From: a virus
DNA: 21,762 nucleotides
Strand: one strand, 5' to 3'
Virus genome (UHGV): UHGV-0262451
Shown piece by piece: positions 2,703 through 17,874 of the stretch. The notes under the pieces are model-generated. The model saw nothing but the letters and a program-made list of their open reading frames with translations. It was not told the origin of the DNA and searched no databases. Both the position numbers and the translations under genes were made by a program. Positions within the stretch are counted from its first letter, which is position 1. Each line of letters opens with the position of its first letter.

Positions 2703-3334
2703 AGAGGACTCCCGGTTGTGCCGCCGCTGTCGCCGGGGTGTTTATGGGTATGCAGTACCTTACCGTTTGATGAGAGTTCACCGCCGGTGTGTTCAATGTT
2801 GCCGCGCATCGTCCCGCCCTTCTGTACTTCCAACGTGCCGGTAATCAGCCTGTTGGTGCAGACCACCTCCGGTGTGTCCAGGGTGACGCGGGTTGATGCT
2901 TTCACCATGACCACCGGCACCGTGGCGGTAACAGAATCAGAAGCCGTCACGCTGGCCGTTTTAATTCCGCTTACCGTGAGTGCACTGGTTTCGGGTTCAT
3001 ACTCAATCACCGCCCCGTCAGGGAAACGGATATGCAGGGCATCCGCCGACGCAGACGGCGCGGGGTTATCGCCGGAATAAATCCCCGGCAGAACAAACGC
3101 CGTGTCAAGTTCACCGCCCACGGCCAGAATCAGCACCTGCTCCCCCACGGAAGGTGCCCACCATGTGCGCGAACGCCCGGCACGACAGGTCAGCCACTGA
3201 AGCCAGTCGGTGCACATGCCGCCGGTCTGCACACGGCAGCGACCGGCTTTAAGGTTGGTTTCGACGATAATGCCGGTGCGAATCATGTTGCGCAGTGCGC
3301 GCGCGAGTTCCTGGATATTTGCGAGAGTGTTCAT
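2699..3334 (-). CDS. V: Baseplate spike/hub protein gpV-like
   Basis: 211-aa ORF, same length as P2 gpV; first gene of the V-W-J-I-H late operon. Confidence 0.88.
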   Translation of the reverse strand: MNTLANIQELARALRNMIRTGIIVETNLKAGRCRVQTGGMCTDWLQWLTCRAGRSRTWWAPSVGEQVLILAVGGELDTAFVLPGIYSGDNPAPSASADALHIRFPDGAVIEYEPETSALTVSGIKTASVTASDSVTATVPVVMVKASTRVTLDTPEVVCTNRLITGTLEVQKGGTMRGNIEHTGGELSSNGKVLHTHKHPGDSGGTTGSPL

Positions 3335-4313: not shown

Positions 4314-4566
4314 CGTTTTCGTCCTGACAGTGTTTAATCATTTTCACCTGGCTGGCACAGCGTGCCAGCGCGTTCTCAAGCTGCCGGATATCAGCACTTA
4401 AATCGCCGTTCGTCTGCGGGTCACTGCCCGGCATCGGGCAAAGGCTCACTTTCGGGCAGGCGTTGTGGACAATCACTGGCGTCGGTGCAGGCGGGGCGCT
4501 GGTGCAACCGGCGCACAGCATCAGGCAGGTCAGCGCCATACCAGCGGCGAAAATCTTCGTTTTCAT
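4276..4566 (-). CDS. lysC: Outer-membrane spanin lipoprotein (Rz1-like), embedded out of frame in the 3' part of lysB
   Basis: Within minus ORF 4276-4683 the internal start MKTKIFAAGMALTCLMLCAGC... gives a 96-aa product with a lipoprotein-type signal peptide ending in Cys; GAGG Shine-Dalgarno about 8 nt upstream of the ATG at 4566-4564. The first 39 codons of the track ORF are probably not translated. Confidence 0.7.
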   Translation of the reverse strand: MKTKIFAAGMALTCLMLCAGCTSAPPAPTPVIVHNACPKVSLCPMPGSDPQTNGDLSADIRQLENALARCASQVKMIKHCQDENDAQTRQPAQGSD

Positions 4567-4846
4567 TAAGTAACCTCGTGATGGTTTTCTCGCGCTGTGC
4601 TTCACGCTTCGCGGCGTTCTCCAGCTCCTGACGCAGTGCCACCTGCGCCAGCTCGTTTTTATCTGCCCTGGTGATGGCAACATGAAGCTGATTTTTCAGC
4701 ATGGTGATGGTCGTCTGCTGCCCGCTGGCGACACTGTTCGCCCTGTCCAGCGAGGCGCGCAGGCTGGCATTTTTGTGTTTCACCAGAAACAGACCGGCCA
4801 CCGCCAGTGATAACAACACAACCAGCACAATCATCAGCTTTGACAT
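4421..4846 (-). CDS. lysB: Inner-membrane spanin (Rz-like)
   Basis: 141-aa ORF with an N-terminal hydrophobic anchor (MSKLMIVLVVLLSLAVAGLFLV) followed by a charged, helix-prone region; P2 LysB position and size. Confidence 0.8.
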   Translation of the reverse strand: MSKLMIVLVVLLSLAVAGLFLVKHKNASLRASLDRANSVASGQQTTITMLKNQLHVAITRADKNELAQVALRQELENAAKREAQREKTITRLLNENEDFRRWYGADLPDAVRRLHQRPACTDASDCPQRLPESEPLPDAGQ

Positions 4847-5259
4847 GGTTCCCGCCCCTCAAAACGCTGACGGCAGGCCGTACGTATCAGCCGGAAGAAC
4901 ACCGACGCCACGAGATAAATCAGCGCGGTAAAAATCCACCCGGCAGCGACCAGCGAGATAAACGTCGCCACCATCACCACCAGAGCCACCGCCCGTCTGC
5001 GCCACGGCACCGGCTGCAAAAACAGCGACGTGACAATCTTCACGGCCAGCGATTCCGGCGGCAGCTCCCGCCCGTAGCGTTCCAGCACATACTCAGTGGC
5101 ATACACGCCGACACCACCGGCAACCACACAGATAACCATCGCCAGAATCGCCCAGGCAGCGACAAAACTGACGGCCACGCTCTGCGGGTAAATCAGGGAC
5201 AGTGCCAGCATCAGCGCCAGCGACACGTTCAGCATCAGTGAAAGGGATAATTTCTTCAT
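4834..5259 (-). CDS. lysA: Lysis-timing membrane protein (antiholin-like)
   Basis: 141-aa ORF made almost entirely of hydrophobic segments (several predicted TM helices); P2 LysA position and size. Confidence 0.75.
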   Translation of the reverse strand: MKKLSLSLMLNVSLALMLALSLIYPQSVAVSFVAAWAILAMVICVVAGGVGVYATEYVLERYGRELPPESLAVKIVTSLFLQPVPWRRRAVALVVMVATFISLVAAGWIFTALIYLVASVFFRLIRTACRQRFEGREPCQS

Positions 5260-9773: not shown

Positions 9774-11546
9774 ATGACCATCACCACAGACACCACTCTT
9801 TTACACGACCCGCGTCGTCAGGCGGCGCTGCTGTACTGGCAGGGGTTTTCCGTGCCGCAGATTGCCGCCATGTTGCAGATGAAACGCCCGACGGTGCAGA
9901 GCTGGAAACAGCGCGACGGCTGGGACAGCGTTGCCCCCATCAGCCGTGTCGAAATGAGTCTGGAAGCGCGGCTGACCCAGCTCATCATCAAACCGCAGAA
10001 AACCGGCGGTGACTTCAAGGAAATTGACCTGCTCGGACGCCAGATTGAACGACTGGCACGGGTAAACCGTTACAGTCAGACCGGCAACGAGGCAGACCTT
10101 AATCCGAACGTCGCTAACCGCAACAAAGGCGGGCGGCGCAAACCGAAAAAGAATTTTTTCAGTGACGAGGCCATCGAAAAGCTGGAGCAGATTTTCTTTG
10201 AGCAGTCTTTCGACTATCAGTTGCACTGGTATCGCGCCGGGCTTGAGCACCGCATCCGCGATATCCTGAAATCCCGCCAGATTGGCGCAACGTTTTATTT
10301 TTCCCGCGAGGCGCTGCTGCGCGCCCTGAAAACCGGCCATAACCAGATTTTTCTGTCGGCCAGTAAAACGCAGGCGTATGTGTTCCGCGAATACATCATC
10401 GCCTTTGCCCGTCTGGTTGACGTTGACCTGACCGGTGACCCGATTGTCCTGGGCAATAACGGCGCAAAACTGATTTTTCTCGGCACCAACTCCAATACCG
10501 CGCAGAGCCATAACGGCGACCTGTACGTCGACGAGATTTTCTGGATCCCGAATTTTCAGGTACTGCGTAAGGTGGCATCAGGTATGGCCTCACAGAGCCA
10601 CCTGCGCTCGACCTATTTCTCCACCCCGTCCACGCTGGCGCACGACGCCTACCCATTCTGGTCGGGTGAACTGTTCAACCGGGGACGCGCCAGCGCCGCC
10701 GAACGCGTGGAAATCGACGTCAGTCATAACGCCCTTGCCGGAGGGCTTCTCTGTGCGGACGGCCAGTGGCGGCAGATTGTCACCATTGAGGACGCCCTGA
10801 AAGGCGGCTGCACGCTGTTCGACATTGAGCAGCTCAAACGCGAAAACAGCGCCGACGATTTTAAAAACCTGTTCATGTGTGAATTTGTTGACGACAAGGC
10901 GTCGGTGTTCCCGTTCGAGGAGCTGCAACGCTGCATGGTCGACACGCTGGAAGAATGGGAAGACTATGCACCGTTTGCCGCCAATCCGTTCGGCTCCCGC
11001 CCGGTATGGATTGGTTACGACCCGTCACACCGTGGCGACAGCGCCGGATGCGTGGTGCTGGCACCGCCGGTGGTGGCCGGTGGCAAATTCAGAATACTTG
11101 AGCGTCACCAGTGGAAAGGCATGGACTTTGCCACCCAGGCTGAATCCATCCGCAAACTCACCGAAAAATACAACGTCGAATACATCGGAATTGATGCCAC
11201 CGGCCTCGGTGTCGGCGTGTTCCAGCTCGTGCGCTCGTTCTATCCCGCCGCGCGCGACATCCGCTACACACCGGAAATGAAAACCGCAATGGTGCTCAAG
11301 GCAAAAGACGTTATCCGCCGTGGCTGTCTGGAATATGACGTCAGCGCCACCGACATCACCAGCTCGTTTATGGCTATTCGCAAGACCATGACCAGCAGCG
11401 GACGCAGCGCCACCTATGAGGCCAGCCGCAGCGAGGAAGCCAGCCACGCCGATCTCGCCTGGGCGACCATGCACGCCCTGTTAAATGAGCCACTCACCGC
11501 CGGTATCAGCACCCCGCTGACATCCACCATTCTGGAGTTTTACTGA
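9774..11546 (+). CDS. P: Terminase large (ATPase) subunit gpP-like
   Basis: 590 aa from MTITTDTTLLHDPRRQAALLYWQGFSVPQIAAMLQ... (P2 gpP size and recalled N-terminus); GAGG SD upstream of the ATG at 9774. The track ORF starts 10 codons earlier at 9744. Confidence 0.9.
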   Translation: MTITTDTTLLHDPRRQAALLYWQGFSVPQIAAMLQMKRPTVQSWKQRDGWDSVAPISRVEMSLEARLTQLIIKPQKTGGDFKEIDLLGRQIERLARVNRYSQTGNEADLNPNVANRNKGGRRKPKKNFFSDEAIEKLEQIFFEQSFDYQLHWYRAGLEHRIRDILKSRQIGATFYFSREALLRALKTGHNQIFLSASKTQAYVFREYIIAFARLVDVDLTGDPIVLGNNGAKLIFLGTNSNTAQSHNGDLYVDEIFWIPNFQVLRKVASGMASQSHLRSTYFSTPSTLAHDAYPFWSGELFNRGRASAAERVEIDVSHNALAGGLLCADGQWRQIVTIEDALKGGCTLFDIEQLKRENSADDFKNLFMCEFVDDKASVFPFEELQRCMVDTLEEWEDYAPFAANPFGSRPVWIGYDPSHRGDSAGCVVLAPPVVAGGKFRILERHQWKGMDFATQAESIRKLTEKYNVEYIGIDATGLGVGVFQLVRSFYPAARDIRYTPEMKTAMVLKAKDVIRRGCLEYDVSATDITSSFMAIRKTMTSSGRSATYEASRSEEASHADLAWATMHALLNEPLTAGISTPLTSTILEFY

Positions 11547-12580
11547 TGAGTAAGAAAAAAGGGAAAACACCGCAACCTGCGGCAAAAAAAATGACCGCCA
11601 GCGCCCCGAAAATGGAGGCATTCACCTTTGGTGAGCCGGTGCCGGTACTCGACCGCCGTGACATTCTGGATTACGTCGAGTGCATCAGTAACGGCAGATG
11701 GTATGAGCCGCCGGTCAGCTTTACCGGTCTGGCGAAAAGCCTGCGTGCTGCCGTGCATCACAGCTCGCCGATTTACGTCAAACGCAATATTCTGGCCTCG
11801 ACATTTATCCCGCACCCGTGGCTTTCCCAGCAGGATTTCAGCCGCTTTGTGCTGGATTTTCTGGTGTTCGGTAATGCGTTTCTGGAAAAGCGTTACAGTA
11901 CCACCGGTAAGGTCATCAGACTGGAAACCTCACCGGCAAAATATACCCGCCGTGGCGTGGAGGAGGATGTTTACTGGTGGGTGCCGTCCTTCAACGAGCC
12001 GACAGCCTTCGCGCCCGGCTCCGTGTTTCACCTGCTGGAGCCGGATATCAATCAGGAACTGTACGGCCTGCCGGAATATCTCAGCGCCCTTAACTCTGCC
12101 TGGCTGAATGAGTCGGCCACGCTGTTCCGCCGCAAGTATTACGAAAACGGCGCTCATGCCGGATACATCATGTATGTCACCGATGCCGTGCAGGATCGCA
12201 ACGATATCGAAATGCTTCGCGAAAACATGGTTAAGTCGAAAGGCCGCAACAACTTTAAAAACCTGTTTCTCTATGCCCCACAGGGGAAAGCCGACGGCAT
12301 TAAAATTATCCCCCTCAGTGAAGTGGCGACGAAGGACGATTTTTTTAATATCAAAAAAGTCAGCGCCGCAGATCTCCTGGACGCACACCGCATCCCCTTT
12401 CAGTTGATGGGCGGTAAGCCGGAGAATGTCGGGTCACTGGGAGATATTGAGAAAGTGGCAAAGGTCTTTGTCCGCAATGAGCTTATCCCGTTACAGGACA
12501 GGATCCGCGAGATAAACGGCTGGCTCGGTCAGGAGGTCATCCGCTTTAAAAACTACTCACTGGACACTGACAACGGCTGA
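11546..12580 (+). CDS. Q: Portal protein gpQ-like
   Basis: 344-aa ORF (P2 gpQ size); start overlaps the P stop (TGATG); last gene before cos, as in P2. Confidence 0.9.
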   Translation: MSKKKGKTPQPAAKKMTASAPKMEAFTFGEPVPVLDRRDILDYVECISNGRWYEPPVSFTGLAKSLRAAVHHSSPIYVKRNILASTFIPHPWLSQQDFSRFVLDFLVFGNAFLEKRYSTTGKVIRLETSPAKYTRRGVEEDVYWWVPSFNEPTAFAPGSVFHLLEPDINQELYGLPEYLSALNSAWLNESATLFRRKYYENGAHAGYIMYVTDAVQDRNDIEMLRENMVKSKGRNNFKNLFLYAPQGKADGIKIIPLSEVATKDDFFNIKKVSAADLLDAHRIPFQLMGGKPENVGSLGDIEKVAKVFVRNELIPLQDRIREINGWLGQEVIRFKNYSLDTDNG

Positions 12581-12585
12581 ACATC

Positions 12586-12607
12586 GCCGCCTGCGGGCGG
12601 CTTTTTT
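12586..12607 (+). terminator. Rho-independent terminator of the P-Q operon
   Basis: GCCGCC-tgcg-GGCGGC hairpin (12586-12601) followed directly by TTTTTT (12602-12607), 6 nt after the Q stop codon. Confidence 0.75.
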
Positions 12608-12749
12608 ACACCCCGTCATCACGCCCTCACACACTCACCACCGCACAAAACAGCCCGCAGACACACCAACGCCCCGGTGCACAATCTAAACGCCATCAAG
12701 ACGCGCTCAGACGCTGAAAAAATAAAATCAGCACCACCGCCAGCGCGCA

Positions 12750-12768
12750 GTGCTTTCCCCGCCTCGCC
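12750..12768. other. cos site (cohesive-end sequence) of the P2-like genome
   Basis: GTGCTTTCCCCGCCTCGCC, the reverse complement of the 19-nt P2 cohesive end as I recall it (GGCGAGGCGGGGAAAGCAC), located just past Q where P2 cos lies. Confidence 0.7.
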
Positions 12769-13040
12769 TGCCCGCTTTATAGGTCGGGTTTAATGCAGTT
12801 GCGTGACCATTTTGGATCCGCGCCAGCTCTGGCCGCTCACGGCCAGAGCGTGCAAGGCTGACTCATGCAAAACCATGCACCTTATGCATTCATGGTTAAA
12901 TAACGATAACTCTGACTCAAATTATTGGTTTGTGTTGGTTTTATTTTGGTTAAGAGATGCGCATTGCACCAATAATACTGGATAGCAGCTTAATAATCAG
13001 CGCTGTTAACAACAGGATATTTGAAGTCATTACCATGGTA

Positions 13041-13070
13041 TTGACCAAGTTACTAAATCTCGGTGTTAAT
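13041..13070 (+). promoter_or_regulatory. Candidate sigma70-type promoter upstream of the cargo ORF
   Basis: TTGACC (13041-13046), 18 bp spacer, GTTAAT (13065-13070) in an AT-rich leader about 150 bp upstream of the ORF. Weak -10; position is speculative. Confidence 0.25.
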
Positions 13071-13221
13071 CAGGGATTGTCAGCGTCATATGTAACATCT
13101 CACGATATCCACATCAACAGCCTGTAGTTTGGCGGCTGATGGCACTTTGGGAGGCTTTCACTTTCACTCTATCTAATGTTACTATCGCGCCCATTACTAG
13201 GAAAATTACTTAATCATAACA

Positions 13222-14844
13222 ATGGGTAGTGATATGCAAATTCAAAGAGGCGTAATTTGGCATACATACACAACACAATCGCCAGAATATCAAGATGCCG
13301 AGAAATTTAGTTCAGACTTGATAAATACAGGGTTGTTTCTTGCAATACTAACGCCACACAACACATTCAAATATTTATCAAAAAACACACCATCCTCAAC
13401 AAAAATAAGCATGAGATATGAAAACAACGAAAATGCTGTTACTGTTGAGGGCGGTGATAAGATTCATGCGTCAGGTGTTTGCGCCCTAACTGCTACGGCT
13501 TTTTCCCAGTGTATAAACATTAGACTCTCTGAAAGAAAGCTTTTTCACACACCAGGTAATAATTATTACGAAAACATAATATGTTGTCAAAAGCCAATCC
13601 TAGTAAAAAATAACGATGTGGAATTTTTTATTCATCCAATTATTCGTCTCTATAAAAATGGGATAGCACATGTTACCTTTGTTGACACTGAGGAACGCAA
13701 TGTTGATTTGAATGATTTCATAAAAAACATTTTAAACCTACCTTTAAAACTAAACAGTTCGATTACTACCAGCATAGAGTTCGCCAAGAGTTCGTTACTG
13801 CTAGACTATTCAGGAATGCCACTACTTAGTAGACTGATAGCGAAGTGTAGTATTAAAAAGAGTTTAAAACTATTGAACGACAACTCTGAAGATCTAGAGG
13901 TTGGTGAATTTAAGGTTACAGGTAGATATATTGATTACACAAATTTAATGCAAATTCAGCATAATTTAAGTGACATCGCCAGATATGTGATTGCTATAAT
14001 ATTTGACAAAACAAAAAAAAGAACAATTAAAGATTATCTTTTAGGCAGAAATCTTTCTGAGTTTTATAACTTCTGGCAAGGTAAGCCAAGCGTCTATATC
14101 TTCGAGCACGATAATCAAAAAAACAATGCCACTGACAATTTTCAGAGTAATAAGTCGTTAGTTTATTCATTGCTGGGCAAAAATCACCTATTAACAAACA
14201 TAAAGCACACCAAGAAAATCATTGATCATCGTGCCTTTGATGATTTCAATTTTTTTTCTGAACAGTCTTTAGCACTGACTATACTTACATGTAAAGTTAA
14301 AAAAGAATTTTTTACCGGGACATATACAGAAGAAAATCTGATGTGGGACAATCAGGTTAAGAGTGATCTTAGAGATTTCATTTCCTTTTCATATGATTCA
14401 ACAATAGAAAAAATTGAAAATGAAAAAAGCCATCTTGGCCTTGCCAAAATACAAGAAGACATCCTTTTATTTGAAGAGTGGCTTAGGATTTTCTCAAGGA
14501 AGTATGGAGAGATACAAGACTTCACATTTAATACATTAAATTCAATCGATATAAAAAGGGCTCGTCAAAGCGTCATTGAATTGATAAAGTCAAGAATCCA
14601 AGTGCTAAAATTAATTGATGCCGACTTAAATGACAAAAGTAATAAGAAGATAACAATGGCCTTTGGTTTAATTGCATCGACATCATTATCCCCAATTTTA
14701 GTAAAGCCATTATTTGAAACACTAAACCTGTCACTTTTAATTAAGAAATCTGGACTCAAAAGCTATGAAGATGCAATTTACTTTGCCACATCCATGGTTT
14801 TGGTTTGGTTAATAATAAAGCTATTAAACTTCAGGAGAAAATAG
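13222..14844 (+). CDS. Hypothetical protein, 540 aa, AT-rich cargo gene in the cos-to-A variable locus; no recognisable catalytic motif; predicted C-terminal membrane hairpin
   Basis: Single long ORF in otherwise ORF-poor AT-rich DNA; codon usage dominated by AAA/AAT/ATT/TTA. Two hydrophobic stretches at the C-terminus (ITMAFGLIASTSLSPILV and AIYFATSMVLVWLIIKLL, then FRRK). Start may be the second ATG at 13234 (weak GGGTAG-like SD). Function is inferred from location only. Confidence 0.7.
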   Translation: MGSDMQIQRGVIWHTYTTQSPEYQDAEKFSSDLINTGLFLAILTPHNTFKYLSKNTPSSTKISMRYENNENAVTVEGGDKIHASGVCALTATAFSQCINIRLSERKLFHTPGNNYYENIICCQKPILVKNNDVEFFIHPIIRLYKNGIAHVTFVDTEERNVDLNDFIKNILNLPLKLNSSITTSIEFAKSSLLLDYSGMPLLSRLIAKCSIKKSLKLLNDNSEDLEVGEFKVTGRYIDYTNLMQIQHNLSDIARYVIAIIFDKTKKRTIKDYLLGRNLSEFYNFWQGKPSVYIFEHDNQKNNATDNFQSNKSLVYSLLGKNHLLTNIKHTKKIIDHRAFDDFNFFSEQSLALTILTCKVKKEFFTGTYTEENLMWDNQVKSDLRDFISFSYDSTIEKIENEKSHLGLAKIQEDILLFEEWLRIFSRKYGEIQDFTFNTLNSIDIKRARQSVIELIKSRIQVLKLIDADLNDKSNKKITMAFGLIASTSLSPILVKPLFETLNLSLLIKKSGLKSYEDAIYFATSMVLVWLIIKLLNFRRK

Positions 14845-14997
14845 ACAATGTAATACCTAAATGCCAATACTAATGTAATTACAAAAATCTTGGCTTAAAG
14901 TATTAGGATCGTAACTTCAACCATAGCTAACGCCTCGCTGGGCGAGTTGTTCAACCCCGCCAGCACTGAAAGCAAGTTTCAGCACCGGCGGCGTTTC

Positions 14998-15234
14998 CTA
15001 TGGTCGACGTGGCGGCAGTATTATCGGACCTCTCGCCGGTGTGAAGGCCTCAACTTTCTGATTGCTTATATCATGCAGCCGCCCGTAATTATCCCTGACG
15101 ATTTCAGCACACCCGACCAGTTCGGCGGGTGTCAGATTCTCATTGACCATTATTTGTTGCAGTCGATGCACAATACCCATCAGTTTTATGCTGTTGTTCT
15201 TATGCTGCGGAATTTCACGGTGTAGTCTGTGCAT
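14998..15234 (-). CDS. Hypothetical small protein (78 aa), translationally coupled to the upstream 101-aa ORF
   Basis: ATG at 15234-15232 directly follows the TAA of the 101-aa ORF; strong SD (GAAGGTGGAGA) 8 nt upstream. The opposite-strand 92-aa ORF (14947-15225) lacks such signals. Confidence 0.55.
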   Translation of the reverse strand: MHRLHREIPQHKNNSIKLMGIVHRLQQIMVNENLTPAELVGCAEIVRDNYGRLHDISNQKVEAFTPARGPIILPPRRP

Positions 15235-15540
15235 TTACCAGTCTCCACCTTCAACGTGTAACTTGTCTGAAATGAGCGCCGCTAACTCATGATTTGCTGA
15301 TGAATTTCTTCCGCTATGCGTATCCCCCAGAACCAACGCGAAGCCATCGCCACCCACCGTGTAATACTTAGCTTCCGGGAAGTGTTCCCGCACCTCCTGA
15401 CGCAGCTTTTCTAGCGCGGTAGAAAGACGATAAAATCGAGATGCCGCAGTCGGCATAACATCAGATAGCAAGTCACGCGCCGTGGTAATGCCTTCGCTAT
15501 CTTTAATAACTTGTTTTATTTCTTCGGTGTACATGGTCAT
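15235..15540 (-). CDS. Hypothetical protein (101 aa) immediately downstream of A; positional equivalent of P2 orf91
   Basis: ATG directly follows the TGA of gene A (TGAATG) with GGAG about 9 nt upstream. Sequence not recognised. Confidence 0.7.
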   Translation of the reverse strand: MTMYTEEIKQVIKDSEGITTARDLLSDVMPTAASRFYRLSTALEKLRQEVREHFPEAKYYTVGGDGFALVLGDTHSGRNSSANHELAALISDKLHVEGGDW

Positions 15541-17874
15541 TCAATCAATCTCCATTATTGAAACATTGGAATATCCCGGCCACTCATCAGCGACCGCATA
15601 ACTGAATTTTTTCTCGCCATATGTCACCGTTGCGCCCCGCGCCAGTACATCCAGTTCCCACCGCTCCGGCGTGATACCGTGTTGTGCTAGGTCAAACCGG
15701 ATGCGTGATATCTGGTCACGCTGCGATTTAGTCAGTCGCGCTGAAGGTGCTAATTCATCCGGCTTCAACGGTGATCGGTTTCTTTGTTGCCTGTTTTGAG
15801 GTTTAGCCCCTGCTTTTAGCGCGCCCCTGAGCACCTTCACGGCGTCCGGGTCATTCCAGTCGATCACCCCAGCATCAATGAGATTTATCACCGCTGCGGC
15901 TTGCTCAGACGGTGTGGGCGTCATATCCGTGTCGCTTCCGTTGGCCGGTAACCCACAGTTATTGACAGGACTCCGAGGCGCGGCGATGCCGCTTTTTAAA
16001 GTCAAAGGCTCAACGACCGGCACTTTCGTAACAATGCGCCAGTCCGTCGTTCTGGTGATATGAATATGACGCGCGCCGAGATGCGGCGCGTAAATGCCGA
16101 CCACTCTCTCGACTTCTTCCTCGTACTCGTTAACTTCATCCGACGGACTACGGGCGACCCTGACAGTCTGACAATCGCGCGGGACATTTGCCCCACCCTG
16201 CGCGCTGATATACAACGCAAAATCACCACTGTCTGCGGCGGCGCGTGCAGCCTCGACGCGCTCGTCAAACTCATCAGCAATGCTGACGCCGCGCGGCAAT
16301 TTGCGTAGTTCACGGTAAGCCCCCATTGTCGGCAGGCCAACCGTTTTAAATTGCGGGATGCGCCACGTTGACGCCCATGCGGTAACAGCCGCTGCAGTGT
16401 CTTTCAGCGGCCTGCCGGTGTCGTTATCGAGCTGACCATCCAGTGCATAGCCGTCGATGTTTTTTGAAATGTATTTCGCGATATATCCCGCAGCACCGCC
16501 CCGGTTAAGGTGTTTTGCCTGAAAACGGTTTCGCGCGGCTCCTCTTTCGTCGCCATCCTCTTTGAGCGCATAGCGACGCATGATTTCGATAATCTGGTTA
16601 CGCTGGCGTGAATTACAAAAAAGCATCATATGCCAGTGCGGCGTTCCGTCGTGGTGTGGCTCGACGACACGCAAACCGTAGACCTGTAAATCATTATCCT
16701 TGAATGCCGTGCGCATCAGGCTCCAGATACGGCAGAGATAACGCTGCGCATCCTTTGGATTAAATGCCTCATCGTTCCAGCCGTGATTAAGCTGCACGGT
16801 TTTACTTTCGCCTTTTCCTACCTGACGTGTCGGGTGATACTTTGACGGCGCGGTCAGCGTGATAAACATCCCCACATCACCCTCTGCAGCGGCGTAACGC
16901 TCAATACCGGCAATGGTGTTCATCAGCTCCATCCGGCGAATTTCAGGATTAGAAATACTGCCCATCACCTTACTGATAAGGTCGATGCGCTCGCCGGTTT
17001 CCCTGTTTTCAAGGTCACACGATTTAAGAAATTCCAGATTTGCCTGGCGGCGCGCACGCACATCACGAATGGCGTGTTTACTGGCATAAGGAGAACGGTC
17101 TTTATTGACCTCCCCGACAGCTATCAGTAACGCTTCATGCCAGCGCATACGCTGGCCTTTAAGCTGACTAATCCACCACTCATCGTTAAACAGGCGGGCA
17201 ATGGCAGAATATGCCTGCCTCGTTGTCATCTGTCCTTTACGGTATTTTTTCCAGTAGAGCGGGGAAATATTGAAAGCACGTGCAGCGCCAGCAACATGAC
17301 CATACAGATGCGCCTGCGCCTCATCCGTAAACAGCGATTCTTTTTCACCATGCGCATCAACCCATGCATCGCAGAGTTCCTCATACATCATGAAAAGCTG
17401 CGATGAGATACGGGCGGCAAACTTTTTCAGCTCCTTGTCATTCATTCCAGGCAGGCGCGCATAGTGGTCACGCTCTGCCAGAAACAGCAACGACGCGTCG
17501 GTGTTCATTTCATGGCGCTGATTAACGCGCTCAATGCGCGGCCATAAACGACGCTGAAAAGTGGATGTGAGGAAATAAAACCCGTGCACCGGGCTTTTAT
17601 TGCGCCGGATGTAGTCATAGCGTGAAGTAAACAGCGAGCGCAAAAAGTAAGGCAGGCGATTAATCGTGGATAAAACACCTTGCACCTGACGCATCTCGTC
17701 ACGTGTAAGGGGTCTTTCGCGCCCGACAGCCTCGCGTGGCGCGTTCCATGCATAAGCACCGGTAAACGTCTTACCGGTGCCTGCGGCAAATGCTGACGGA
17801 GGGACAAAACGCCCGAAGGCTTTAACGGCCATATGAGCCAAAAGCCTCTGAACAACGCTTGCTGAGTTGCTCAA
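15541..17874 (-). CDS. A: Replication initiation protein gpA-like (HUH-type rolling-circle nickase)
   Basis: 777-aa ORF; internal MAVKAFGRFVPPSAFAAGTGKTFTG... matches my recollection of the P2 A N-terminus, so the true start may be 17832 (763 aa). Contains a HUH-like motif (TPHWHMMLF). Confidence 0.9.
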   Translation of the reverse strand: MSNSASVVQRLLAHMAVKAFGRFVPPSAFAAGTGKTFTGAYAWNAPREAVGRERPLTRDEMRQVQGVLSTINRLPYFLRSLFTSRYDYIRRNKSPVHGFYFLTSTFQRRLWPRIERVNQRHEMNTDASLLFLAERDHYARLPGMNDKELKKFAARISSQLFMMYEELCDAWVDAHGEKESLFTDEAQAHLYGHVAGAARAFNISPLYWKKYRKGQMTTRQAYSAIARLFNDEWWISQLKGQRMRWHEALLIAVGEVNKDRSPYASKHAIRDVRARRQANLEFLKSCDLENRETGERIDLISKVMGSISNPEIRRMELMNTIAGIERYAAAEGDVGMFITLTAPSKYHPTRQVGKGESKTVQLNHGWNDEAFNPKDAQRYLCRIWSLMRTAFKDNDLQVYGLRVVEPHHDGTPHWHMMLFCNSRQRNQIIEIMRRYALKEDGDERGAARNRFQAKHLNRGGAAGYIAKYISKNIDGYALDGQLDNDTGRPLKDTAAAVTAWASTWRIPQFKTVGLPTMGAYRELRKLPRGVSIADEFDERVEAARAAADSGDFALYISAQGGANVPRDCQTVRVARSPSDEVNEYEEEVERVVGIYAPHLGARHIHITRTTDWRIVTKVPVVEPLTLKSGIAAPRSPVNNCGLPANGSDTDMTPTPSEQAAAVINLIDAGVIDWNDPDAVKVLRGALKAGAKPQNRQQRNRSPLKPDELAPSARLTKSQRDQISRIRFDLAQHGITPERWELDVLARGATVTYGEKKFSYAVADEWPGYSNVSIMEID

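What the first reader, a model, noticed from the sequence alone, without database searches (positions are those of the whole stretch)
14998..15540. Two translationally coupled small ORFs extend the A operon toward the cargo gene
A stop and 101-aa start abut (TGAATG); the 101-aa stop and 78-aa start abut (TAAATG), the latter with a strong SD (GAAGGTGGAGA). Canonical P2 has a single small ORF (orf91) after A, so the 78-aa gene looks extra. It may belong to the cargo module (partner, antitoxin or regulator of the 540-aa protein) or be an independent moron. Neither protein carries a motif I recognise.
Basis: partly seen in the sequence, partly recalled or inferred. Interest (0 to 1): 0.45.

Follow-up and report, generated by a model that had tools for sequence, protein, structure and literature searches.

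The report
Two accessory genes ending P2 replication operon
Two small, real, function-unknown genes sit at the tail of the replication operon of a P2-like prophage; they are ordinary phage accessory genes that travel independently of the neighbouring cargo gene rather than being its partners.

Summary
On the minus strand, gene A (stop 15541-15543), a 101-aa ORF (15540-15235) and a 78-aa ORF (15234-14998) abut as TGAATG and TAAATG, each with a GGAG 8-9 nt upstream. Both are real genes: substitutions fall mainly on third codon positions, and dN/dS is about 0.05-0.3.

- **78-aa gene.** It belongs to a widespread family (phrog_11386, PSP3 gp37) that ends the early operon of P2-type prophages and follows tum in 186-type ones. 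It occurs next to 34 different cargo intervals, including empty ones.
- **101-aa gene.** This is the non-canonical one. It is unrelated to P2 orf91 (DUF3850) and fills a variable slot between A and the 78-aa gene. That slot elsewhere holds DUF3850 or at least four other unrelated small genes.
- **Cargo link.** The 101+78 pair occurs with at least three different cargos, and a 63% homologue of the cargo occurs without either small gene. A cargo-partner or antitoxin role is not supported.

A covarying 15-bp RNA hairpin directly after the 78-aa stop marks the operon end, and the GC drop into the AT-rich cargo begins there.

Function is unknown for both: no Pfam, NCBIfam, PADLOC, PDB or fold match. 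The most likely roles are early lytic-cycle accessory proteins. Interest is low to moderate.

The parts
15541..17874 (-). Replication initiator gene A (gpA). This is the longest ORF, starting at a TTG. RefSeq calls a 763-aa product in the identical locus, which implies a start at about 17832. Its last ~12 codons belong to the swapped module.
   Evidence: Pfam Phage_GPA 4e-123. RefSeq annotates a 'replication endonuclease'. Megablast homology to several other P2-like phages ends at query 3074-3081, i.e. window ~15573-15580, about 35 nt before the A stop.
15235..15540 (-). 101-aa acidic protein (pI 5.25), family phrog_27273. It occupies the variable slot between A and the 78-aa gene. Its start abuts the A stop (TGAATG), with GGAG at 15550-15553.
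   Evidence: ORF and sequence. phrog_27273 2.9e-58 over the full length. Codon-position bias and dN/dS 0.1-0.3. AF2 pLDDT 92.7. 140 family representatives with the motif FPDAxYYT..GG..L.LGxSH and a C-terminal GGDW. pI.
14998..15234 (-). 78-aa basic protein (pI 10.0), family phrog_11386 (Salmonella phage PSP3 gp37 family). It is the terminal gene of the early operon. Its start abuts the 101-aa stop (TAAATG), with GGAG at 15243-15246 inside the codons for the 101-aa protein's C-terminal EGGDW.
   Evidence: ORF and sequence. phrog_11386 5e-44. tblastn hits in 34 phage records and 166 protein clusters. dN/dS about 0.07. AF2 gives a helical hairpin, H10-31 and H36-59, core pLDDT above 90, with a disordered proline-rich tail ending PPRRP. 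pI.
14927..14997 (-). Conserved ~70-nt element directly after the 78-aa stop codon. It has a 15-bp stem with a 5-nt loop and a conserved GUUGAACAAC...GCGAGGCGUUAG tail, with no U tract. It marks the end of the operon and the compositional boundary with the cargo.
   Evidence: Minus-strand RNA fold -43.5 kcal/mol, z -3.9, against -29.9, z -1.6 for the plus strand. The element lies downstream of the 78-aa gene on the same strand in 100 places, and a second copy follows tumB in 23 places in 186-type loci. 94.5% of cells pair, 7 pairs have changes on both sides, and 0 of 500 shuffles reach this. It is not called as an intrinsic terminator. The GC switch falls here.
13222..14844 (+). 540-aa cargo gene, given as context and not part of the operon. 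It is convergent, AT-rich, and sits where P2 carries old/tin.
   Evidence: ORF. phrog_24946, with no Pfam, PADLOC or NCBIfam match. GC 31-36%. P2 map for comparison.

Best explanation
**Shown.** The window is a P2-like (Peduovirus-type) prophage. The two ORFs are genuine protein-coding genes forming the 3' tail of the early replication operon: Pe ... B - orf80-83 - A - 101 aa - 78 aa.

The operon tail is modular.
- The last ~12 codons of A together with the next gene form a variable slot. In P2-type relatives it holds a 150-aa DUF3850+DUF7415 protein (truncated to orf91 in P2), a 58-aa very acidic protein, 90-, 126- or 133-aa proteins, nothing, or, rarely, this 101-aa protein.
- Each slot gene abuts or overlaps the start of the conserved 78-aa gene.
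- The 78-aa gene is followed by a covarying RNA hairpin, after which the exchangeable A-Q hotspot cargo begins.

Neither small gene is linked to the 540-aa cargo.

**Inferred (expression).** Both proteins are made only when the early operon is derepressed, on infection or induction. Ribosomes terminating on A and then on the 101-aa gene would re-initiate at the abutting ATGs, which ties their output to gpA translation.

**Inferred (function, low confidence).** They are non-essential early accessory proteins that act by binding rather than catalysis.
- The 101-aa protein is a compact alpha/beta domain. Its family sits next to replication initiator, helicase or primase genes in many unrelated phages. 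It most plausibly modulates or protects phage DNA replication, or neutralises a host factor or defence that senses it.
- The 78-aa protein is a basic helical hairpin under very strong purifying selection, with conserved unstructured N- and C-terminal motifs. It most plausibly binds a conserved host or phage macromolecule.

The hairpin most likely stabilises or defines the 3' end of the operon's mRNA.
For: - **Operon and coupling:**
- **Coding status:**
- **78-aa family breadth:**
- **Slot variability.** Among 46 P2-type IMG/VR loci the gene before the 78-aa homologue is DUF3850 in 29, the 58-aa protein in 7, the 101-aa protein in 6, and something else or nothing in 4. All end at or overlap the 78-aa start. 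A 96%-identical 78-aa gene follows a 126-aa slot gene in L032.
- **Independence from cargo:**. The GC step at the hairpin agrees.
- **The 78-aa gene is not a gpA-specific partner.** It occurs with gpA types that are only 37% identical and is itself 82-86% identical between them.
- **It is not essential.** P2 lacks it, and about 543 places carry it against about 4,618 places with the portal gene in E. coli genomes.
- **The 101-aa family sits in early/replication modules of unrelated phages:**
  - after Rep_O and DnaB in Acinetobacter prophages;
  - 10 nt after a Toprim primase;
  - among helicase, HNH, VRR-NUC and NinB genes;
  - next to PAPS_reduct and ahead of GmrSD_N.
- **Structures:**
- **Hairpin:**
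Against: - The functional part therefore rests on context alone.
- One member of the 101-aa family lies among head genes in Pectobacterium phage Pappous, so the replication-module association is not absolute.
- Within E. coli, all ten sampled contexts of the identical 101-aa protein carry the same cargo. The independence argument relies on more diverged copies at 84-93% identity.
- No expression data were available.
- The hairpin lacks a U tract, so a terminator role is unproven.
Confidence: 0.6

Rival explanations
1. One or both small proteins belong to the cargo module, as antitoxin, immunity factor or regulator of the 540-aa protein.
For: The genes are physically adjacent. In all 10 sampled contexts of the identical 101-aa protein the triad 101-78-540 is kept, across two different immunity/integrase modules. 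The triad is equally rare: one complete E. coli genome carries each of the 101-aa gene and the cargo.
Against: - The cargo is convergently transcribed and compositionally foreign, at 31-36% GC against 47-51%.
- The 101+78 pair occurs with SocA_Panacea cargo and with ParB_N/methyltransferase cargo (L033).
- The same cargo cluster occurs with either the 101-aa gene or DUF3850.
- The 78-aa gene occurs with 34 cargo clusters, including empty hotspots.
- A 63% cargo homologue occurs with neither small gene.
- Cargo alleles truncated to 477 and 263 aa coexist with intact small genes.
Confidence: 0.05
2. The slot between A and the 78-aa gene is a counter-defence micro-hotspot. On this reading the variable, mostly acidic slot proteins (the 101-aa protein included) are inhibitors of host immune systems expressed at the start of lytic growth, and the conserved 78-aa protein is a shared helper or regulator.
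For: - At least six unrelated alternatives occupy one position in an early operon, all small and with pI 4.1-5.4.
- The slot lies next to a known defence hotspot (PMC9122126; PMC13586616).
- The layout, variable small genes followed by one conserved small gene, recalls anti-CRISPR/aca operons. That comparison comes from my own knowledge.
- Known anti-defence genes are almost undetected in P2-like phages, 28 of 1,511 (PMC13586616), which leaves room for unknown ones.
Against: - No anti-defence library was available to test against.
- The 78-aa model is a two-helix hairpin, not a helix-turn-helix like Aca proteins.
- The slot has no promoter of its own.
- DUF3850/ASCH and the 101-aa family could equally be nucleic-acid metabolism factors; related PHROGs are annotated 'RNA-binding protein'.
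Confidence: 0.25
3. The 78-aa protein acts on the adjacent hairpin RNA, in the manner of the Rop helical-hairpin dimer, to control mRNA stability or read-through from the early operon into the hotspot. With convergent cargo such as this one, read-through would produce antisense RNA.
For: The protein is a basic helical hairpin. A covarying hairpin lies immediately 3' of the gene in about 100 loci, and flanks the gene on both sides in 186-type prophages. G-U pairs favour the sense strand of the operon.
Confidence: 0.08
4. The ORFs are chance or decaying reading frames with no protein product.
For: They are short, lack any domain match, and are annotated only as hypothetical.
Against: - Third-position substitution bias and dN/dS well below 1, with saturated dS.
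- Intact homologues of constant length across genera.
- A confident, compact AF2 fold for the 101-aa protein, pLDDT 92.7.
- Good SD sequences and start/stop coupling.
Confidence: 0.02

Closest known systems
Salmonella phage PSP3 gp37 (AAN08401.1), Escherichia phage vB_EcoM-12474III HYP86_gp07, PHROG phrog_11386
   Same: The 78-aa protein is homologous to these: 82.5% identity over residues 1-57 with PSP3 and 72% over 76 residues with 12474III, and an HMM match of 5e-44. It is the last gene before the A-Q hotspot in each and is followed by the same hairpin element.
   Different: In PSP3 and other 186-type phages the gene stands about 200 nt after tumA/tumB, behind a second copy of the hairpin, rather than being coupled to a slot gene. 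The C-terminal tails differ in length (67-81 aa). No member has a known function.
P2 orf91 (NP_046796.1, DUF3850/ASCH-like) and the full-length 150-aa DUF3850+DUF7415 protein of P2-like phages
   Same: Same position, immediately after A with overlapping or abutting junctions. Same expression logic. Where full-length, it is likewise followed directly by the 78-aa gene.
   Different: There is no sequence relationship to the 101-aa protein. The 101-aa gene is a non-homologous replacement. P2's own orf91 is a truncated form, and P2 lacks both the 78-aa gene and the hairpin.
PHROG phrog_27273 and its wider ~100-aa family (Pectobacterium phages Pappous/Taid, Dickeya phage Setonix, Acinetobacter phages, Mesorhizobium phage Cp1R7A-A1)
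   Same: The 101-aa protein is a full-length member (2.9e-58), 35-56% identical to these phage proteins. The conserved motif and the C-terminal GGDW are shared.
   Different: Those phages are not P2-like, and the gene lies in their own early/replication or small-gene clusters. Placement after gpA is a rare recruitment, seen in 1 of 5,426 complete E. coli genomes.
The A-Q ('TO', tin/old) defence hotspot of P2-like phages (Rousset et al. 2022, PMC9122126; Moura de Sousa et al. 2026, PMC13586616)
   Same: The small ORFs lie inside the interval these studies treat as the hotspot, between gpA and gpQ. The 540-aa gene occupies the old/tin position and orientation.
   Different: The small ORFs are not hotspot cargo. 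They are on the operon side of a conserved hairpin and GC step, and they are kept while the cargo changes. In the text searches I ran on these papers I found no mention that separates this operon tail from the cargo.
Anti-CRISPR/aca operons (resemblance in layout only; from my own knowledge)
   Same: Variable small genes lie immediately upstream of one conserved small gene.
   Different: No dedicated promoter. The conserved protein is not predicted to be a helix-turn-helix. No anti-defence activity is known or was tested.

Membership tests
P2 orf91 / DUF3850 (ASCH-like) | Match to Pfam PF12961 (DUF3850) or ASCH, or detectable homology to P2 Orf91 | tested here: not met
   The 101-aa protein has no Pfam hit other than a sub-threshold Spc7 match. 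BLASTP against P2 Orf91 gives E=2.6. The true 150-aa slot protein scores DUF3850 1e-17.
phrog_11386 / PSP3 gp37 family (78-aa protein) | Full-length HMM or sequence match | tested here: met
   phrog_11386 5e-44 over residues 1-68 of 69 profile positions. 166 homologous clusters. 18 invariant core positions in a 28-sequence sample.
phrog_11386 / PSP3 gp37 family (78-aa protein) | Position as the last gene before the A-Q hotspot, on the A strand, followed by the conserved hairpin | tested here: met
phrog_27273 family (101-aa protein) | Full-length HMM match and the conserved motif FP(D/E)A.YYT..GG..L.LG.(S/T)H with a C-terminal GGDW | tested here: met
   2.9e-58 over 1-101 of 101. The motif is invariant among close members and nearly invariant (P55, A57, Y60, L69, G72, H75, G99) in 97 sequences.
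Toxin-antitoxin or two-gene defence module with the 540-aa cargo | Partner genes co-occur across diverged loci | tested here: not met
   The 101+78 pair occurs with three cargos. The 78-aa gene occurs with 34 cargo clusters. A cargo homologue occurs without either small gene.
Toxin-antitoxin or two-gene defence module with the 540-aa cargo | Same transcription unit or shared regulation | tested here: not met
   Opposite strands, convergent, separated by the hairpin and a GC step. Transcription itself was not measured.
Known anti-phage defence proteins (PADLOC-DB) | HMM match to a defence family | tested here: not met
   No hit at E<=0.1 for either small protein or the cargo.
Known anti-defence proteins (anti-restriction, Acr, nucleotide sponges and similar) | Sequence or fold similarity to a characterised inhibitor, or demonstrated inhibition | tested here: inconclusive
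Intrinsic (Rho-independent) terminator, for the hairpin at 14927-14997 | GC-rich stem-loop | tested here: met
   15-bp stem, -43.5 kcal/mol for the 101-nt stretch (14900-15000, minus strand) that contains it, with covariation.
Intrinsic (Rho-independent) terminator, for the hairpin at 14927-14997 | U tract directly after the stem | tested here: not met
   The stem is followed by GGGGUUGAACAAC. The terminator scan does not call it.
Aca-like regulator (helix-turn-helix downstream of variable small genes) | Helix-turn-helix DNA-binding fold | tested here: not met
   The AF2 model has only two long helices. There is no HTH Pfam hit.
Rop-like RNA-binding helical hairpin | Helical hairpin that dimerises into a four-helix bundle and binds RNA stem-loops | tested here: inconclusive

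The most novel reading that the evidence does not exclude
The tail of the P2/186 early operon would be a second, previously unseparated exchange site inside the 'A-Q hotspot'. It would be a counter-defence or host-takeover slot in which unrelated small acidic proteins, here the 101-aa protein with no detectable relative among solved structures, are swapped in front of a strongly conserved 78-aa basic helical-hairpin protein and a structured RNA element. On this reading the 78-aa protein and hairpin form a conserved functional unit, for example an RNA-binding regulator of operon 3'-end formation or of read-through into the cargo, or a shared adaptor for the slot proteins. P2-like phages would then carry offence and defence cassettes back to back.
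Probability: 0.12. Interest if true: 0.6.

Novelty: new member of a known kind. Interest (0 to 1): 0.3.

Why it matters
- **Reading the hotspot.** Surveys that take everything between gpA and gpQ as candidate defence cargo will include early-operon genes that are expressed in the lytic cycle, not in the lysogen. Those genes do not co-vary with the cargo. The conserved hairpin and the GC step give a practical left boundary for the cargo.
- **Testable candidates.** There is a very conserved 78-aa protein carried by roughly a tenth of P2/186-type prophages in E. coli. There is also a set of interchangeable small proteins directly after the replication initiator. Both are plausible places to look for the counter-defence or replication-helper functions that remain almost unknown in this phage group.
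- **The finding as written.** The suggested link to the 540-aa cargo does not hold, so that gene should be studied as a single-gene cargo.

Tried and rejected
**Function by homology.** All of these returned nothing usable.
- Pfam, PHROGs, PADLOC and NCBIfam gave only unnamed PHROGs.
- The PDB sequence profile searches were negative: only weak coiled-coil noise for the 101-aa family and nothing for the 78-aa family.
- Rfam gave nothing over 12400-16000.

**Function by fold.**
- BFVD returned only two unnamed small phage proteins, at E 1.5e-3 and 4.5e-2.
- The afdb50 library was not available.

**Domain fusions.** Longer members of the 101-aa family (up to 245 aa) carry no Pfam domain.

**Literature.**
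- No paper mentions the protein accessions or PHROG ids.
- Searches for orf91 and orf92 found nothing relevant.
- Nilsson et al. 2004, on recombination at the TO region, is not held.

**Ideas considered and dropped.**
- 'Wphi gp92' as the family's name-giver. The annotated Wphi CDS is a chimera, and the 78-like frame there has an internal stop.
- The hairpin as a canonical terminator, because there is no U tract.
- A sigma-70 promoter for the 78-aa gene in PSP3, because none was found.
- The plus-strand 92-aa antisense ORF, because the codon-position pattern is wrong.
Full report
**What the window is.**
- The window is a P2-like prophage lying in reverse orientation to the P2 map.
- Gene order, with strands: terminase P and portal Q (+, Q at 11546-12580); a cos-proximal gap; a 540-aa gene (+, 13222-14844); then on the minus strand the 78-aa ORF (15234-14998), the 101-aa ORF (15540-15235), gene A (from 17874 or 17832 to 15541); then orf83/82/81/80, B, cox, C and int.
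- Megablast finds 116 phage records of the P2 group. All match A and Q but not the stretch in between.
- The reference P2 map places old and tin where the 540-aa gene sits, with the same orientation relative to A.

**Checking the observation.**
- The junctions are as described once read on the minus strand: TGAATG between A and the 101-aa ORF, and TAAATG between the 101-aa and 78-aa ORFs.
- A GGAG lies 9 nt before the first ATG (15550-15553) and 8 nt before the second (15243-15246).
- The second GGAG lies within the codons for the C-terminal EGGDW of the 101-aa protein. That motif is conserved in distant family members from unrelated phages, so it is not merely a by-product of the ribosome-binding site.
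- Both ORFs are real genes.
  - In ungapped codon alignments with homologous loci, substitutions fall 177/98/485 on codon positions 1/2/3 for the 78-aa core and 32/18/81 for the 101-aa gene.
  - dN/dS is 0.04-0.18 for the 78-aa core, with dS often above 1, and 0.10-0.30 for the 101-aa gene.
- The antisense 92-aa ORF on the plus strand would take most changes at its first codon position, so it is an artefact.

**What the 78-aa gene is.**
- It matches phrog_11386 over its full length (5e-44).
- tblastn finds it in 34 P2/186-group phage records, among them Salmonella phage PSP3 gp37 and Escherichia phage vB_EcoM-12474III gp07.
- The large protein collection holds 166 clusters from Escherichia, Salmonella, Klebsiella, Citrobacter, Enterobacter, Edwardsiella, Lelliottia and Buttiauxella.
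- About 516 of 5,426 complete E. coli genomes carry a DNA-level match, against 3,286 with a P2/186-type portal gene. It is therefore a common accessory gene, not a core one.
- The core sequence IPQH..IKLMAIVHRLQQIMVNENLTPAELVGCAEIVRDNY is nearly invariant. The tail varies in length but usually ends PPRRP.
- AlphaFold2 predicts two long helices (10-31 and 36-59, pLDDT above 90) with disordered ends. The protein is basic, pI 10.0.
- The annotated gp92 of phage Wphi is not a good name-giver. It is a chimera of the end of a DUF7415 domain and the first nine codons of the 78-like frame, and that frame carries an internal stop there.

**What the 101-aa gene is.**
- P2 orf91 is a DUF3850/ASCH protein. 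The 101-aa protein is unrelated to it.
- It matches phrog_27273 over its full length (2.9e-58).
- Its phage relatives are in Pectobacterium, Dickeya, Acinetobacter and Mesorhizobium phages, at 35-56% identity.
- A profile search of 1.8 billion representatives finds 140 members. Almost all are stand-alone proteins of about 100 aa sharing FP(D/E)A.YYT..GG..L.LG.(S/T)H and a C-terminal GGDW.
- The AlphaFold2 model is confident (pLDDT 92.7): three helices packed on a small sheet.
- In other phages the gene lies in early/replication modules:
  - after Rep_O and DnaB in Acinetobacter prophages;
  - 10 nt after a Toprim primase and before SbcCD-like and RusA genes;
  - among helicase, HNH, VRR-NUC and NinB genes;
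  - next to PAPS_reduct;
  - overlapping a GmrSD_N gene.
- There is one exception, among head genes.
- In E. coli the arrangement A-101-78 is rare: 1 of 5,426 complete genomes, although the identical protein is on several hundred draft contigs.

**The operon tail is modular.**
- I fetched 80 IMG/VR loci that encode a 78-aa homologue and located reference proteins in them.
- In the 46 P2-type loci (gpA at least 64% identical), the gene between A and the 78-aa homologue is:
  - a 150-aa DUF3850+DUF7415 protein in 29;
  - a 58-aa very acidic protein in 7;
  - the 101-aa protein in 6;
  - in the other 4, a 126-aa, 133-aa or 90-aa protein, or nothing.
- In each case the upstream gene ends at, or overlaps, the 78-aa start codon.
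- A 96%-identical 78-aa gene follows the 126-aa protein in L032. The slot gene therefore changes without the 78-aa gene changing.
- In several P2-like phages, homology to this window's A gene stops about 35 nt before the A stop codon (query positions 3074-3081). The last codons of A thus travel with the slot gene.
- In 186/PSP3-type prophages (gpA 37-38% identical), the 78-aa homologue is 82-86% identical. It stands about 200 nt after the SOS-controlled tumA/tumB genes.
- P2 itself has a truncated orf91 and lacks both the 78-aa gene and the hairpin.

**Independence from the cargo.**
- I clustered the DNA between the 78-aa stop and the Q stop in the 77 loci that contain both. This gave 34 clusters, and 18 loci have an essentially empty interval of about 490 bp.
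- One cargo cluster (about 3.8 kb) occurs with the 101-aa gene in L033 and with DUF3850 in L086 and L089.
- The 101+78 pair occurs with three cargos:
  - the 540-aa gene in E. coli;
  - a SocA_Panacea gene plus a 190-aa gene in a Buttiauxella prophage;
  - ParB_N, a 339-aa gene and a D12 methyltransferase.
- A 63% homologue of the 540-aa protein lies between tum and Q in a 186-type prophage that has neither small gene.
- In some E. coli strains the cargo is truncated to 477 or 263 aa while both small genes are intact.
- GC content is 31-36% across the cargo, 47-51% across the small ORFs and 54-58% in A. The step falls at about 14900-14950.
- Together these results rule out an obligatory partnership with the cargo. 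They place both small genes on the phage-operon side of the boundary.

**The element at the boundary.**
- A megablast of 14845-15600 against E. coli genomes showed that about 70 bp (14927-14996) is conserved at about 95% identity in many genomes that lack the small genes.
- On the minus strand this stretch folds into a 15-bp stem with a 5-nt loop. It folds much better than on the plus strand: -43.5 against -29.9 kcal/mol, z -3.9 against -1.6. G-U pairs on the sense strand of the operon account for the difference.
- Among the fetched loci it lies directly after the 78-aa stop, on the same strand, in 100 places. In 186-type prophages a second copy follows the tumB stop, so the 78-aa gene is flanked by direct repeats there. 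A 186-type locus without the 78-aa gene has a single copy.
- On 33 distinct sequences, 94.5% of cells pair and 7 of the 15 pairs show changes on both sides. No shuffle out of 500 reaches this, and slid registers collapse to 35-51% paired.
- Some loci that lacked a BLAST hit carry diverged copies of the stem that still pair (L085/L088/L090, L102); the others carry collapsed or partly deleted copies (L018/L042, L079, L103/L105/L106).
- There is no U tract and the terminator scan does not call it.
- I regard it as a 3'-end stem-loop of the operon whose exact role is open: stabiliser, processing site, Rho-dependent end or protein target. It serves as a practical marker of where cargo begins.

**How the genes most likely work.**
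- *Shown:* the genes are part of the early operon and are arranged for coupled translation.
- *Inferred:* they are expressed only on infection or induction, with output tied to gpA.
- Neither can be essential, since P2 lacks both.
- The 78-aa protein is not a gpA-specific partner, since it accompanies gpA types that are only 37% identical.
- Its very low dN/dS, with saturated synonymous sites, points to a conserved binding partner in the host or in the conserved part of the phage.
- The position of the 101-aa family next to replication genes in unrelated phages points to a role at or around phage DNA replication, or in countering something that senses it.
- I consider a counter-defence reading of the variable slot plausible but untested. 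It rests on several unrelated, mostly acidic small proteins occupying one early position next to a defence hotspot.
- An RNA-binding role of the 78-aa protein on the adjacent hairpin is possible but weakly supported. The hairpin exists without the gene.

**Comparison with what is known, and verdict.**
- Both genes are members of existing but uncharacterised families: phrog_11386 (PSP3 gp37) and phrog_27273.
- The region is the well-known A-Q (tin/old, 'TO') hotspot (PMC9122126, PMC13586616, PMC6823313). In the text searches I ran on those papers I found nothing that separates the operon tail from the cargo.
- Very few known anti-defence genes are reported in P2-like prophages: 28 of 1,511 (PMC13586616).
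- The finding is therefore an accurate observation of ordinary phage accessory genes.
- Two points of modest interest are added: the variable slot in front of a strongly conserved small gene, and the covarying hairpin that bounds the cargo.
- The proposed link to the cargo is not supported.

Noticed in passing
window 14927-14997 (minus strand); also L001 3812-3876 and 4212-4281, L122 3505-3570 and 3115-3152: A conserved ~70-nt element with a covarying 15-bp stem-loop and no U tract lies directly after the stop of the last early-operon gene. In 186/PSP3-type prophages it is duplicated on both sides of the 78-aa gene, so that gene looks like a cassette between direct repeats. There is no Rfam match.
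   Followed up: partly
window ~15541-15580 (3' end of gene A); L032, L041, L045 around 4560-5000: The last ~12 codons of gpA differ along with the slot gene (…EWPGYSNVSIMEID, …EWPGYSTETEWS, …EWPGFSTGFK). DNA homology to other P2-like phages ends about 35 nt before the A stop, so the recombination breakpoint lies inside A.
   Followed up: partly
L004 (phage Wphi) 3863-4216: The annotated Wphi gp92 CDS is a chimera of the C-terminal part of a DUF7415 domain and the first 9 codons of the 78-like frame. The 78-like frame there has an internal stop after 18 codons, so Wphi carries a decayed copy.
   Followed up: yes
window 13222-14844; L010, L011, L017, L028; L120 2446-4056: The 540-aa cargo protein has no Pfam, PADLOC or NCBIfam match and has 31-36% GC. 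Alleles truncated or split to 477 and 263 aa occur in some E. coli strains. A 63% homologue lies in a 186-type prophage. It is present in only 1 of 5,426 complete E. coli genomes and in no record of the phage collection.
   Followed up: partly
L034-L036, L039, L087, L096, L104 (~4825-4998); L007 4309-4485: One alternative slot gene encodes a 58-aa protein that is extremely acidic and tryptophan-rich (pI 4.1, net charge about -11; MADFASTNRTASFEEWHEQLIDYAELRGGSASDADAWREDYDSGRSVADAWHDAWGDD). It matches only the C-terminal part of phrog_519. Its composition resembles DNA-mimic inhibitors, which is a lead only.
   Followed up: no
L055, L059, L069, L073, L081 (4062-4821); L064 (3677-4786): In some 186-type prophages extra genes are inserted between tum and the 78-aa gene. 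One is a 243-aa protein with a hydrophobic N-terminal stretch. In L064 the insert is a 156-aa plus a 198-aa pair, similar in gene sizes to the SocA_Panacea + 190-aa pair of L018; I did not compare the sequences. This suggests a further insertion point upstream of the 78-aa gene.
   Followed up: no
L122 4393-5880: A group II intron reverse transcriptase/maturase (ltrA) is inserted between gene A and tumA in a 186-type prophage of E. coli O68:H12 strain 97.3.
   Followed up: no
L002 3549-4001; L003 4817-5146: The usual slot protein is a two-domain DUF3850 (ASCH-like) + DUF7415 protein of 150 aa. P2 orf91 (109 aa) and Wphi orf91 (93 aa) are truncated versions that keep only the first domain.
   Followed up: partly
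P0033 (129 aa), P0055 (99 aa): A few 78-aa family members carry N-terminal extensions of 20-50 residues. These look like read-through fusions with an upstream small slot gene.
   Followed up: no
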